Source: Candidatus Sericytochromatia bacterium
Lineage (GTDB): Bacteria > Cyanobacteriota > Sericytochromatia > S15B-MN24 > VGJW01
Assembly: GCA_035285595.1 (NCBI GenBank)
Contig: JAYKGV010000004.1
Coordinates: forward strand, 3,327-67,326
Direction: 5' to 3'
Length of the DNA stretch: 64,000 nt
In this document: piece by piece, positions 61,478-62,710 of the stretch
Layout of the letters: every line of letters begins with the position of its first letter
How positions within the stretch are numbered: the first letter of the stretch is position 1
The notes under the pieces: model-generated
Seen by the model: the letters and a program-made list of their open reading frames with translations, nothing else
Database searches by the model: none
Told to the model about the DNA's origin: nothing
Program-made: the position numbers and the translations under genes

Positions 61478-62710
61478 GAGGGTGTTCTCCTTCTGGCGCC
61501 TTGTGGGCGCACCAAGGGACGGGAGGGTTCTTGCCCAGGCATGGGAGGCTTGCGTCCCCCTTCCCGCGCGCCCCTGCACGCCCTTGTCACGGGCAGGAGG
61601 CGGAGATGCAGCCGTGCCGACGGCCTGTCCCCCCGGATCATGCCGGGGGGCTTCGCCGGCTGGGCGGACCCGAGCCGGTGCGATGCGTGCGAGGTGTCGA
61701 GAGGTCTGGAGTACCCGCGGAATCTCTGTCCTGCGGGACGATGACCGGGCAGCCGAAATCGCCGGGATGACGTCGTTGAAGGTTCGTACGGGAACTCCCA
61801 TACGACTGGCCGTACGACGGATCGCCCGGGTGGTCCGGACAAGGCGGCGTCGCGGCCCCTCGGGGAGTCCGGCGAAGGAGCTCTCGTCCGCAAGTTGCAA
61901 GACGGGATGGGGCCGGCGGACAGCCGCGCGGACCACGACTCCGGCAACAGCCATGTCGCACGCGGCCTGATAACGGGCCAGCTTGGCCTCGAGTGCACGG
62001 GCCGACCGATGGGCACCCTTGCGATGCATCGAGGCAATCACCCGTCGCAAGCGGCCAGCCTTGCCCGCTTCGCGTCGGCCGCCGGCGCCCAGCAGGGTGT
62101 GTCCGCGGGCGTCCGTGACCATGGCGCGGTGATGCAGCCCAAGGGCTACCCCCACAGAGGTGCGAGGCTGGAGTCGGCAGCGGACCCGCAGCCACCACCT
62201 GCCCTTGCGGCGACCGATACGGGCCTCGAGCCAGCGCGCACGCTCCGTAAGGCGCAAGAACTGGACCATCTCGAAGTCTTGCGGGAGTCGTGCCTGTATA
62301 GGCAAATCACGGCCCAGGAGCGGCACGATCACGCGCAGCGTCCCATCCGGATGAGGCGCGAGGCTCCATGTGCCTGGAGCAAAGACAGCCCAAGTCCAGC
62401 CCTCGCTGCCAGTGTCCACGGACCCTGCAGCAAGCGCACGTGTCTGCGCCTCGACAACCTCGAGGAGGCTGCTGCGGAAAGGTTCAGGCAAGGCCTCGAG
62501 GCCACTTCGGGCACCGCCCAGCATCATGCGTGCCCGCCTCAAGCCTTCGTCTCGGACGGTCTCGGCCAGGTTCATCCAGCCAAGCGGGGCGAGGGCCTCG
62601 CGCCACAGGGAAGCAAGGCGCTCTGTCTGTTCGCGCACAAGACGCAGCCCTTGTCGCTGGGCCCGGTCGAGGGGCCTCAGCTCGAGGTCGAAGGTGCGTA
62701 GGGTGCTCAT
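60938..62710 (-). CDS. Nuclease-dead TnpB/Cas12f-like protein (TldR-like); TnpB-like part ~62710-61670, no stop before the downstream ORF
   Basis: RTFDLELRP; ARIGRRKGRWWLRV (WED); VGVALGLHHRAMVTD (RuvC-I, D>A); basic bridge helix; LQLADES (RuvC-II, E>A); GVPVRTFND; PRVLQTSRHL (RuvC-III degenerate). Confidence 0.75.
   Translation of the reverse strand: MSTLRTFDLELRPLDRAQRQGLRLVREQTERLASLWREALAPLGWMNLAETVRDEGLRRARMMLGGARSGLEALPEPFRSSLLEVVEAQTRALAAGSVDTGSEGWTWAVFAPGTWSLAPHPDGTLRVIVPLLGRDLPIQARLPQDFEMVQFLRLTERARWLEARIGRRKGRWWLRVRCRLQPRTSVGVALGLHHRAMVTDARGHTLLGAGGRREAGKAGRLRRVIASMHRKGAHRSARALEAKLARYQAACDMAVAGVVVRAAVRRPHPVLQLADESSFAGLPEGPRRRLVRTTRAIRRTASRMGVPVRTFNDVIPAISAARSSSRRTEIPRVLQTSRHLARIAPARVRPAGEAPRHDPGGQAVGTAASPPPARDKGVQGRAGRGTQASHAWARTLPSLGAPTRRQKENTLMTTIVKDLGETTQKLVVHSLDNLKTYVEKTSQELGAVNLVGATRHVLDTAIDGAKNVVKATETLSDDPFTTLKEVADRSVEATREVLNTIAEEGRKADLVGVSTRIAMEGLNTLRSEVDYSLETGKALVNRLQTSATPTEPVVTRPPQVTRVEIEHEKPTRSSAKSTEKVPAAEKSANA
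61629..61654 (-). mobile_element. IS200/IS605 right-end-like hairpin (candidate omega-RNA 3' scaffold)
   Basis: Minus strand GAAG-CCCCCCGG-CATGAT-CCGGGGGG just after the TnpB-like RuvC-III region. Confidence 0.6.

What the first reader, a model, noticed from the sequence alone, without database searches (positions are those of the whole stretch)
61590..61740. Retained right-end hairpin and stacked stem-loops: putative omega/guide RNA for the dead TnpB
Seen on the minus strand: three consecutive stems overlap the end of the TnpB domain: CCCGCAGGA..TTCCGCGGG (61737-61714), CCGGCT-CGGG-TCCG-CCC-AGCCGG (61678-61656) and GAAG-CCCCCCGG-CATGAT-CCGGGGGG (61654-61629). Known: TnpB omega-RNAs overlap the 3' end of tnpB, end at the IS200/IS605 right-end hairpin (often preceded by GAAG/GAAT), and take their guide from the next ~16-20 nt. 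Inference: a fixed guide lies within ~61628-61595 (ACAGGCCGTCGGCACGGCTGCATCTCCGCCTCC). The canonical TCAC/TCAA end is not clean (GGCAC is the nearest), so the guide boundary is uncertain.
Basis: partly seen in the sequence, partly recalled or inferred. Interest (0 to 1): 0.75.

Follow-up and report, generated by a model that had tools for sequence, protein, structure and literature searches.

The report
Conserved structured RNA behind dead TnpB

Summary
The three stems are in the sequence at the stated coordinates. The window alone does not fold better than shuffles (z -0.95). Two syntenic Candidatus Sericytochromatia genomes show that the second and third stems are conserved hairpins. Three base pairs in them are kept by changes on both sides, all distinguishing the window copy. 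The first stem is only the outer remnant of a longer orthologous hairpin.

These stems are the 5' part of about 185 to 250 nt of stacked hairpins. They run from the TnpB RuvC-III codons to the ribosome-binding site of a conserved downstream gene, called X here. That stretch is 85-100% identical against about 70% in the flanks. Its substitutions show no third-codon-position bias, and its peptide is predicted disordered.

In 26 of 26 family members TnpB, linker and X form one open reading frame. Only the window copy has lost all three RuvC residues and the zinc ribbon.

The proposed guide (61628-61595) is invariant, base-paired and conserved family-wide. It lies 86 nt after the RuvC-III codon, whereas canonical relatives place the scaffold/guide boundary at 153-301 nt.

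Verdict: an omega-RNA-like scaffold is likely. The guide is probably misplaced, and function in this dead copy is unproven.

The parts
61683..62710 (-). Nuclease-dead TnpB-like coding region (WED/REC/RuvC core). It is the first part of a 590-codon ORF that runs on without a stop to 60938.
   Evidence: ORF listing. Alignment with 25 relatives: Ala at the RuvC-I Asp, Ala at the RuvC-II Glu, Val at the RuvC-III Asp, all 4 zinc-ribbon Cys missing, and a 12-residue deletion. AlphaFold pLDDT is 80-94 for residues 1-314. Foldseek top hits are Cas12f/TnpB. There is no Pfam, NCBIfam or PDB sequence hit for the window copy itself.
61714..61737 (-).
   Evidence: It lies in the segment with 34 window-specific substitutions against 7 and 4, plus 36 gapped columns.
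61684..61699 (-). Degenerate RuvC-III helix codons. The orthologs can form a local 6-bp hairpin here; the window has lost it.
   Evidence: 7 of 7 variable sites in 61700-61684 are window-specific.
61654..61680 (-).
   Evidence: Pair 61673/61660 has three different standard pairs. One terminal pair is open in the window.
61629..61650 (-).
   Evidence: Pairs 61649/61630 (C-G against U-A) and 61643/61636 (G-C against A-U) are compensatory, and 100% of cells are paired.
61605..61629 (-). 25-nt run invariant in all three genomes.
   Evidence: Its translation Q-A-V-G-T-A is the most conserved linker island in 26 of 26 relatives.
61562..61606 (-). HP5, a long hairpin of 18 pairs.
   Evidence: There is 1 compensatory pair (61602/61567, C-G to G-C) and 2 wobble-compatible changes.
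61543..61560 (-). HP6, 7 pairs with a GCAA loop. It is weaker in the window.
61517..61536 (-). HP7, a weak 5-bp hairpin and the most variable stretch of the linker.
61496..61510 (-). HP8, GCGCC-CACAA-GGCGC, ending 3 nt before the ribosome-binding site. The only variable base (61504) is in the loop.
61414..61494 (-). Zone where a scaffold/guide boundary is expected if the geometry of the three canonical relatives measured here holds (ISDra2 would put it at 61562). It holds the RBS AAGGAG (61492-61487), the X start codon (61477) and the frozen first codons of X.
   Evidence: Calibration. Invariant runs 61482-61424 (59 nt) and 61422-61395 (28 nt). That the guide lies here is inference only.
60938..61477 (-). 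Gene or domain X: 179 aa, helical, no known family. It has its own RBS and Met but is in frame with TnpB.
   Evidence: No family match in Pfam, NCBIfam, PADLOC, PHROGs or PDB.

Best explanation
The three stems are the 5' end of a structured RNA of about 185 to 250 nt, read on the minus strand in the same sense as tnpB. It is a chain of hairpins, HP1 to HP8, spanning 61737-61496. The chain starts in the last TnpB codons and ends 3 nt before the ribosome-binding site of the constant neighbour gene X.

By position, strand, length and its relation to the protein, it is the counterpart of a TnpB omega-RNA (reRNA) scaffold. It begins where the ordered protein ends, and its translation is a disordered tail.

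HP1 sits in the part that overlaps essential protein codons. In ISDra2 the corresponding part of the RNA is dispensable. HP1 has decayed in the window together with the zinc ribbon.

HP2 and HP3 open the conserved core and were kept by compensatory substitutions. If there is a guide, it should start about 150 to 300 nt after the RuvC-III codon. That is around or after HP8, over the RBS and first codons of X.

In 25 of 26 relatives the partner TnpB keeps its nuclease residues. In the window it does not, so here any TnpB-RNA complex could at most bind DNA, as TldR does. Alternatively the RNA now serves only the X transcript.

Shown: the stems, their conservation and covariation, the substitution pattern, the dead active site, and the family architecture. 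Inferred: that the RNA is made, that TnpB binds it, where the guide is, and what it targets.
For: 1. Homology and context. The only close relatives are two 602-aa proteins of Candidatus Sericytochromatia MAGs. Their loci are syntenic on both sides, with anmK upstream and tmk and a PBP gene downstream.

2. Nucleotide-level constraint. Identity is about 0.45-0.8 in anmK and TnpB but 0.85-1.0 from 61650 to 60940. Variable sites in 61628-61478 split 8/9/6 by codon position. X splits 13/6/41 (Fisher p=0.001) and TnpB 94/67/203 (p=0.008).

3. Structure. RNAalifold gives 75 pairs, 95.6% of cells paired, against 42-48% when partners are slid by 1-3 columns. Five pairs change on both sides, against 2.6 +/- 1.2 in shuffles (28 of 500 shuffles reach 5) and 0-1 in the slid controls. 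Of 16 variable pairs in HP2-HP7, 9 stay paired in all three genomes: 4 by double change and 5 by one-sided change.

4. Fold stability. The HP2-HP6 core has z -5.13 in L001 and -3.41 in L002, with 0 of 200 shuffles as good in either. The sense strand folds better than the antisense strand (-89.2 against -83.6 and -80.2 against -75.4 kcal/mol).

5. Relation to the protein. The linker peptide (residues 345-420) has pLDDT below 50. This parallels ISDra2, where the essential scaffold (-116 to -1) overlaps the disordered, dispensable C-terminal residues 376-408 and the dispensable 5' RNA overlaps essential codons (passages read).

6. The partner is a TnpB. Orthologs hit PF07282 (1.3e-7). P0007 hits annotated TnpBs by tblastn (3e-28), Cas12f/Cas12u models in PADLOC (2.9e-21) and a transposase PHROG (7e-23). 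The fold search returns Cas12f, TnpB and Cas12k.

7. Boundary calibration. The distance from the RuvC-III Asp codon to the right end is 221 nt (Bacillus IS), 248 nt (Chroococcidiopsis, from an empty site) and 301 nt (haloarchaeal). It is 153 nt in ISDra2.

8. Selection in the window lineage. The window-specific changes in HP2 and HP3 fall in three pairs that remain standard pairs (61649/61630, 61643/61636, 61673/61660), in loops (61667, 61641, 61640), and at one terminal pair that is open (61679/61655). The 151 nt after HP3 are not accelerated in the window (9 changes against 7 and 6).
Against: 1. No described RNA family matches. Rfam found nothing relevant at E<=10 in 58000-64000 and nothing at E<=1 in L001 or L002.

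2. Only three DNA sequences were available, about 90% alike in the linker, so covariation rests on a handful of events. The shuffle control is not overwhelming (28 of 500).

3. The window copy folds no better than shuffles: z +0.60 for 61493-61700 and -1.11 for the core. It also has more open pairs than the orthologs: 5 in the consensus register, one of which is a register artefact, against 1 in each ortholog.

4. No pseudoknot or closing helix could be shown. The predicted long-range helix is no better than shuffles, with 128 and 341 of 2000 as good.

5. No guide, TAM or target was identified. K-mer matches in the 64-kb window are at chance level.

6. The frame stays open through the linker in 26 of 26 relatives. 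Translation-level selection therefore acts on the same bases, and part of the conservation may serve the protein or X expression.

7. The unchanged rate of 61628-61478 in the lineage whose TnpB is dead is also what an X leader independent of TnpB would show.

8. The calibration relatives are only 24-28% identical to the family.
Confidence: 0.5

Rival explanations
1. The conserved hairpins are an mRNA element of gene X and owe nothing to TnpB. They would act as a structured leader or intercistronic processing and stabilising element that sets the X level from a tnpB-X transcript. The TnpB upstream is a decaying passenger.
For: The stretch 61628-61478 evolves at the same rate in the dead-TnpB lineage as in the orthologs (9 against 7 and 6 changes). 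Everything upstream of 61629 is 3-6 times faster in the window. Conservation continues without a break into the RBS and the first 18-28 codons of X, with invariant runs of 59 and 28 nt. HP8 ends 3 nt before the RBS. X has low dS (0.20-0.30 against 0.88-1.21 in TnpB) and an invariant Met and RBS-encoding codons in 26 of 26 relatives. No promoter-like site was found between tnpB and X, so co-transcription is plausible.
Against: On contigs long enough to judge, X was found only together with this TnpB clade: 24 fused ORFs of 585-656 aa. The 4 stand-alone predictions are on contigs of 819-2117 nt, and one is near-identical to the X part of P0006. A leader specific to X therefore cannot be separated from TnpB. 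The element starts exactly where the ordered TnpB fold ends and has omega-RNA length. No riboswitch or leader family matches. This reading does not explain why HP2 and HP3, 150-200 nt upstream of the RBS, are kept by compensatory change.
Confidence: 0.25
2. The scaffold is HP1 to HP3, about 109 nt in the window and about 115 nt with four hairpins in the orthologs. It ends at 61629, and the fixed guide is the next 16-20 nt (61628 onward).
For: The scaffold length resembles the 116-nt four-stem ISDra2 core and the 97-100-nt TldR scaffolds. The window-lineage acceleration stops exactly at 61629. The next 25 nt are invariant, as a fixed guide with a conserved target would be.
Against: The boundary is 86 nt from the RuvC-III codon, against 153-301 nt in four calibrated systems. 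The supposed guide folds into HP4 and pairs into HP5, which has a compensatory change. Its peptide is the most conserved linker island across relatives only 31-41% identical. That would demand one universal target. The scaffold would lie wholly over essential zinc-ribbon and RuvC-III codons, the reverse of the ISDra2 arrangement. No match of 14 nt or more, and only chance-level matches of 11-13 nt, were found elsewhere in the window.
Confidence: 0.12
3. There is no RNA function. The stems are by-products of G+C-rich coding sequence, and the conservation reflects a translated linker of a real TnpB-X fusion protein.
For: The frame is open through the linker in 26 of 26 relatives despite length variation. 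The window stretch folds no better than shuffles.
Against: Substitutions in the linker show no third-position excess (8/9/6), and 25-59-nt runs have no synonymous change at all. The peptide is predicted disordered. The orthologs fold at z -3.4 to -5.1. Double changes keep pairs.
Confidence: 0.08

Closest known systems
TnpB omega-RNA / reRNA of IS200/IS605-family elements (ISDra2 as the solved example; Nakagawa et al. 2023, PMC10097598, passages read)
   Same: Same strand as tnpB. It starts in the last tnpB codons. It is a multi-hairpin scaffold of about 100-250 nt. The conserved core overlaps a disordered, poorly conserved C-terminal tail of the protein, while the 5' part overlaps essential codons. 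The partner protein has the TnpB/Cas12f fold.
   Different: There are no transposon ends, no tnpA and no second copy, and the chromosomal site is fixed in three genomes. The tnpB frame has no stop and reads through the RNA into a conserved partner, X. No pseudoknot, guide or TAM was identified, and no covariance-model match was found. In the window the nuclease is dead.
TldR (TnpB-like nuclease-dead repressor) with its gRNA (Wiegand et al. 2023 preprint 10.1101/2023.11.30.569447, sections 4-7 read; Xiao et al. 2026 preprint, abstract only)
   Same: All three RuvC residues are mutated and the zinc ribbon is ablated, while the WED/REC fold is kept. tnpA and LE/RE are absent. There is a tight association with a non-transposon gene. 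A structured RNA lies downstream of the gene.
   Different: In TldR the association with the accessory gene arose together with inactivation, and whole clades are dead. Here the association with X predates inactivation (25 of 26 X-linked relatives keep the active site), and only one lineage is dead. No promoter target is known. The RNA is partly eroded in the dead copy.
Structured intercistronic or 5'-leader mRNA elements
   Same: Stacked G+C-rich hairpins lie directly upstream of a ribosome-binding site within an operon transcript, and they are conserved with the downstream gene.
   Different: The sequence conservation (85-100%) is far higher than simple stabiliser hairpins need. The element begins at the end of a TnpB fold and is found only with that TnpB clade.

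Membership tests
TnpB omega-RNA (reRNA) | Encoded on the tnpB strand, overlapping or following the 3' end of a tnpB gene | tested here: met
   HP1-HP8 run from the zinc-ribbon and RuvC-III codons to 61496 on the tnpB strand. The sense strand folds better than the antisense strand.
TnpB omega-RNA (reRNA) | The partner protein is a TnpB (RuvC D-E-D plus zinc ribbon) | tested here: met
   Met for the family: 25 of 26 members keep the active site, and there are PF07282, tblastn, PADLOC and Foldseek hits. The window copy has the fold but none of the catalytic residues.
TnpB omega-RNA (reRNA) | Conserved secondary structure supported by covariation | tested here: inconclusive
   5 pairs change on both sides in 3 sequences. 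28 of 500 shuffles reach that number, and the slid controls give 0-1. The result is suggestive but rests on few events.
TnpB omega-RNA (reRNA) | Match to a described omega-RNA or IS605-orfB-type covariance model | tested here: not met
   Rfam 15 gave no relevant match in the window at E<=10 or in L001 and L002 at E<=1. Which omega-RNA models Rfam holds is recalled, not checked. No model was built from the canonical relatives.
TnpB omega-RNA (reRNA) | Pseudoknot joining the bases just 5' of the guide to the 5' part of the scaffold | tested here: inconclusive
   The only long-range helix predicted (61694-61685 with 61510-61499) is no better than shuffles, and 3 of its 10 pairs are open in the window.
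TnpB omega-RNA (reRNA) | A 3' guide taken from DNA beyond the transposon right end, matching a TAM-flanked target | tested here: inconclusive
   No right end is definable (single copy). There are no above-chance matches in the 64-kb window. The rest of the genome was not available.
TnpB omega-RNA (reRNA) | The RNA is expressed, processed and bound by TnpB | not testable with these tools
   No transcript data are available.
IS200/IS605 right-end hairpin (TnpA substrate) | Part of a mobile unit with LE/RE, often with tnpA, in several copies or variable sites | tested here: not met
   The neighbours are anmK and X. The locus is the same in L001 and L002. There is no other copy in the window or loci. 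The upstream intergenic region is no more conserved than background.
TldR + gRNA | Two or more RuvC D-E-D residues mutated with the TnpB fold retained | tested here: met
   3 of 3 residues are mutated and 4 of 4 zinc-ribbon Cys are lost. Residues 1-314 have pLDDT 80-94 and give Cas12f/TnpB fold hits. E276, two residues after the mutated Glu column, could not be excluded as a substitute.
TldR + gRNA | The inactive state is maintained by selection (dead clade, purifying selection) | tested here: inconclusive
   1 of 26 relatives is dead. Window-branch dN/dS is 0.30, against 0.11 and 0.20, with dS near saturation. There is no stop or frameshift in 590 codons. The numbers also fit full neutrality over roughly the last sixth of the branch (my arithmetic).
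TldR + gRNA | The guide matches a promoter or 5' UTR next to a cognate TAM | not testable with these tools
   This needs the whole genome and a known guide. Only 64 kb was searched.

The most novel reading that the evidence does not exclude
The whole clade, at least 26 lineages, is a fixed TnpB module rather than a transposon. In it the omega-RNA scaffold is translated as a disordered linker that fuses TnpB to a conserved helical protein, X. The guide is X's own ribosome-binding site and first codons, so assembly of the RNA-protein complex and expression of X are coupled. The window then holds the first nuclease-dead, TldR-like derivative of that module.
Probability: 0.15. Interest if true: 0.85.

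Novelty: new variant of a known kind. Interest (0 to 1): 0.6.

Why it matters
TnpB is the ancestor of Cas12, and its repeated domestication (Cas12, Cas12k, TldR) is an active question. This locus belongs to a TnpB clade I did not find described. The supporting searches were TnpB plus Sericytochromatia (0 papers), TnpB plus phasin, and TnpB plus nuclease-dead, fused or non-transposon (listings only).

In this clade the nuclease, an omega-RNA-like element and a protein of unknown family are always one reading frame. In three genomes they sit at one chromosomal site. That gives a natural series: 25 nuclease-intact relatives and one dead copy, with the RNA half decayed and half frozen. The series makes two questions testable: which parts of an omega-RNA are needed once cleavage is lost, and whether a guide can overlap the start of a neighbouring gene.

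If the RNA turns out to be only a leader of X, the finding reduces to an ordinary conserved 5' element beside a TnpB relic.

Tried and rejected
- Rfam scans of the window (58000-64000, E<=10) and of L001 and L002 (E<=1) gave 5 sub-threshold, irrelevant matches and 0 matches respectively.
- A long-range closing helix was predicted by RNAalifold, but duplex energies are no better than shuffles and stronger partners exist elsewhere. It was dropped.
- Guide-target search. All 11-14-mers of 61700-61440 were compared with the rest of the window: 0 hits at k=14, 1 at k=13, 7 at k=12 and 29 at k=11. I judge these to be chance level.
- Promoter and terminator scan of 60800-62900 found 0 promoter-like sites and 2 terminator-like sites, neither in the linker. 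HP3 has no T-run.
- Function of X. There was no hit in Pfam, NCBIfam, PADLOC, PHROGs or a PDB profile search. The atlas gave only a weak phasin lead at 0.88.
The covariation test on a larger set is therefore undone.
- Calibration attempts that gave no clean boundary. The Pontibacillus relative matched only its own record. The Paenibacillus relative's alignments ended at two positions, 552 and 585, at about 84% identity.
- No covariance model was built from canonical omega-RNAs or from the three linkers. At 24-28% protein identity a negative result would say little.
- C-terminal tails of 30 ordinary TnpB hits show no clear likeness to the linker islands.
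Full report
**The observation.**

Stem 1 is 61737-61729 with 61722-61714: 5 pairs, a mismatch, then 3 pairs. Stem 2 is 61678-61656. Stem 3 is 61650-61629, preceded by GAAG.

Each stem folded alone beats its shuffles, with z -3.27, -2.86 and -2.84. The segment ends were chosen around the stems, so these scores are inflated. The whole 156 nt from 61590 to 61745 folds at -65.5 kcal/mol with z -0.95, and 35 of 200 shuffles do as well. 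From the window alone the stems are therefore not distinguishable from what 66% G+C DNA gives.

**What surrounds it.**

The stems lie inside one minus-strand ORF, 62776-60938 (612 codons, or 590 from the likely ATG at 62710). Its last 179 codons (61477-60938) have their own AAGGAG and ATG, and I call this part X. Upstream on the other strand is anmK (Pfam 1.7e-94). Downstream are tmk and a class A PBP-like ORF.

The N-terminal 360 residues hit nothing in Pfam, NCBIfam or PDB by sequence. A search of 5.8 billion proteins found only two relatives besides the window's own protein. Both are 602 aa, from Candidatus Sericytochromatia MAGs, and 62-65% identical over the TnpB part. One genome scan returned their loci, L001 and L002 (2 confirmed of 15 pattern matches). 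Both are syntenic with the window on both sides.

**The protein is a dead TnpB, and the only dead one in its clade.**

- The orthologs hit PF07282 (Cas12f1-like TNB) at 1.3e-7. L002 scores 3.7e-5, which is 24.2 bits and below the 26.3 cut-off. Both hit OrfB_IS605 weakly.
- A profile search of 1.84 billion representatives gave 52 hits at E<=1e-3 and 6 at E<=1e-10.
- A more distant member, P0007, matches annotated TnpB genes on plasmids by tblastn. The best E-value is 3e-28, over residues 1-364 only, and 0 of 1158 records cover 80% or more of the query. It also hits Cas12u/Cas12f models (2.9e-21) and a transposase PHROG (7e-23).
- An AlphaFold model of the window ORF, built on a 26-row alignment, has pLDDT 80-94 for residues 1-314. 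Its best PDB matches are Cas12f, TnpB and Cas12k, with 58 matches at E<=1e-3 and the top at 8.5e-11. TM-scores are low because the full-length model includes disordered parts.
- In the alignment of 26 family members, 25 keep the RuvC-I Asp, the RuvC-II Glu, the CxxC...CxC zinc ribbon and the RuvC-III Asp. The window copy has Ala, Ala, no Cys with a 12-residue deletion, and Val.
- Its branch has dN/dS 0.30, against 0.11 and 0.20 for the orthologs (simple Nei-Gojobori with dS near saturation).
- The odd-one-out counts show a star-like tree in anmK (139/153/118). The window runs 1.6 times faster in the first TnpB half (82/50/50), 3-4 times faster in the second half (75/26/19) and about 5-8 times faster over the zinc-ribbon codons (34/7/4 plus 36 gapped columns).

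**The unexpected architecture.**

- The closest profile hits are 613, 610, 532, 396 (N-terminally cut) and 587 aa long. Each is TnpB plus a linker plus X in one frame. The 338-aa hit stops after RuvC-II, and the next hits are ordinary TnpBs of 369-400 aa.
- Searching with X alone found 24 long proteins of 585-656 aa, 22 of them with PF07282 precomputed.
- It also found 4 short proteins of 166-171 aa on contigs of 819-2117 nt. All four start at the X Met, and one is almost identical to the X part of P0006.
- The linker varies in length among the 26, yet the frame is open and in register with X in all of them. The Met of X and a Glu codon 4 residues before it are invariant. The Glu lies in the AAGGAG of the three loci for which I have DNA.
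- X matches no family. The atlas gives only a weak phasin-like lead at 0.88.

**The linker is constrained as nucleic acid.**

- Sliding identity is about 0.45-0.8 across anmK and TnpB. It is 0.85-1.0 from about 61650 through X to its stop.
- Within 61628-61478 there are 23 variable sites, split 8/9/6 over codon positions. X splits 13/6/41 and TnpB 94/67/203 (Fisher p=0.001 and 0.008).
- Runs of 25 nt (61629-61605), 20 nt, 19 nt and 59 nt (61482-61424) have no change in any genome.
- The peptide encoded here (residues 345-420) is predicted disordered, with pLDDT about 30.

**The structure.**

RNAalifold on 61700-61470 and the two orthologs gives a chain of hairpins:

| Hairpin | Window coordinates |
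|---|---|
| HP2 | 61680-61654 |
| HP3 | 61650-61629 |
| HP4 | 61625-61610 |
| HP5 | 61606-61562 |
| HP6 | 61560-61543 |
| HP7 | 61536-61517 |
| HP8 | 61510-61496 (local, found in single-sequence folds) |

- On this structure 95.6% of cells pair, against 42-48% when partners are slid.
- Five pairs change on both sides, against 2.6 +/- 1.2 in shuffles (28 of 500 reach 5) and 0-1 in the slid versions.
- HP3 carries two of these pairs, C-G/U-A and G-C/A-U. HP2, HP5 and HP6 carry one each; in HP6 the pair is open in the window.
- Of 16 variable pairs in HP2-HP7, 9 stay paired in all three genomes. Thirteen further variable sites are unpaired.
- The HP2-HP6 core folds at z -5.13 in L001 and z -3.41 in L002, with 0 of 200 shuffles as good in each. 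In the window it folds at only z -1.11, with 28 of 200 as good.
- The sense strand is 5-6 kcal/mol better than the antisense strand in both orthologs. The structure also uses G-U pairs, which points to an RNA of tnpB polarity.
- Stem 1 of the finding corresponds to a 13-bp hairpin in the orthologs over the CxC codons. The window keeps only the outer five pairs.

**Where would the guide be?**

Three results argue against that.

1. That segment is the invariant 25-mer. It forms HP4 and the 5' arm of HP5.
2. Its translation, Q-A-x-G-T-A, is the best-conserved linker island in relatives that are only 31-41% identical overall.
3. The geometry is wrong. I measured the distance from the first base of the RuvC-III Asp codon to the last base of the element in canonical relatives of the family:

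| Element | How the right end was found | Distance |
|---|---|---|
| Bacillus IS200/IS605 element | Copies in other plasmids end at query position 633-638 | 221 nt |
| Chroococcidiopsis element | An empty site in a related plasmid starts at query 555 | 248 nt |
| Haloarchaeal element | 14 of 14 listed non-self records end at 689-695 | 301 nt |
| ISDra2 | The paper states that residues 335-408 overlap -231 to -10; with Asp361, a residue number I recall | 153 nt |

In the window the equivalent codon starts at 61714. The end of HP6 is 172 nt away, the end of HP8 is 219 nt away and the base before the X ATG is 237 nt away.

The same paper shows that in ISDra2 the essential 116-nt scaffold overlaps the disordered, dispensable C-terminal tail, while the dispensable 5' RNA overlaps essential codons. 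That is the pattern here. HP1 and the RuvC-III codons have decayed in the window along with the protein. The disordered-tail region from HP2 onward is the conserved part.

I therefore read the finding's stems as the 5' end of the scaffold and its 'guide' as scaffold. A guide, if present, should lie around 61494-61414, over the RBS and frozen first codons of X. This last step is inference. No pseudoknot was found, no TAM is known, and no target turned up in the window.

**Is the RNA still in use in the window?**

For continued use:
- The window-specific changes in HP2 and HP3 are structure-preserving, except for one terminal pair.
- 61628-61478 is not accelerated in the window (9/7/6).
- The ORF has no stop or frameshift.
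- dN/dS remains below 1.

Against continued use:
- The window has more open pairs than either ortholog.
- It has lost the fold-energy signal.
- It is the single dead member of the clade.
- The dN/dS value can be reproduced by neutrality over roughly the last sixth of the branch.
- If X expression needs the upstream frame or the leader, that alone would keep both.

I cannot decide between a TldR-like binder and a relic whose RNA now serves X.

**Comparison with known systems.**

The element works like, and sits like, a TnpB omega-RNA. It differs in four ways:
- It lacks transposon ends.
- It is translated through.
- It is welded to a constant partner gene.
- It matches no described RNA family.

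The window protein meets the sequence definition of a TldR: two or more DED residues mutated, the zinc ribbon ablated, no tnpA or LE/RE, and an accessory gene (Wiegand et al. 2023 preprint, sections 4-7 read). Unlike the fliC_P clade, where that paper reports association and inactivation arising together, the link to X here predates inactivation, and no dead clade exists.

I found no paper on this clade. The searches were TnpB plus Sericytochromatia (0 papers), and TldR plus TnpB, TnpB plus phasin, and TnpB plus nuclease-dead, fused or non-transposon (listings and abstract openings only).

**Limits.**

- There are three DNA sequences only.
- No transcript data are available.
- The calibration relatives are remote, at 24-28% identity.

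Noticed in passing
window 62710-60938 (-); L001 6001-7809; L002 6001-7809: TnpB, a linker of about 75-95 codons and a 170-180-aa helical protein of no known family (X) form one uninterrupted reading frame in 26 of 26 relatives examined. X also keeps its own RBS-like codons and an invariant Met. Whether a fusion protein, free X or both are made is open.
   Followed up: partly
window 61482-61395 (-): The 5 nt before the X start codon and the first 18 codons are invariant in all three genomes (59 nt). After one variable site, 28 more nt are also invariant. Synonymous sites are frozen here although dS of X overall is 0.2-0.3. This suggests a nucleotide-level role at the start of X, such as a guide, the scaffold end or a translation-initiation structure.
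   Followed up: partly
window 60883-60270; L001 7864-9767; L002 7859-7960: Directly after the X terminator the three genomes differ in content. The window has about 600 bp with a hydrophobic 114-aa ORF that has no Pfam hit. L001 has about 1.9 kb with a 426-aa ORF. L002 has about 100 bp. Synteny then resumes at tmk, so this is a variable spot beside the module.
   Followed up: no
window about 60925-60891 (-): A G+C-rich hairpin of about 13 bp follows the X stop codon and is conserved in L001. Conservation of the whole block ends just after it. It is a likely terminator with a poor U-tail, and the terminator scan did not report it.
   Followed up: no
window about 61773 (-), against L001 6940-6975: A 36-nt in-frame deletion removes the first CxxC of the zinc ribbon. 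It is the only indel between the window and the orthologs across tnpB, the linker and X.
   Followed up: partly
L006 2154 onward (Chroococcidiopsis thermalis plasmid NC_019699.1) against NZ_CP097481.1: A related plasmid carries the two flanking genes side by side without the IS. This natural empty site marks the right end of that tnpA-tnpB element 53 nt after the tnpB stop.
   Followed up: partly
window 61477-60941 (-): X is also somewhat faster in the window lineage (28 lineage-specific changes against 19 and 8; branch dN/dS 0.21 against 0.10 and 0.10). The relaxation may not be confined to TnpB.
   Followed up: no
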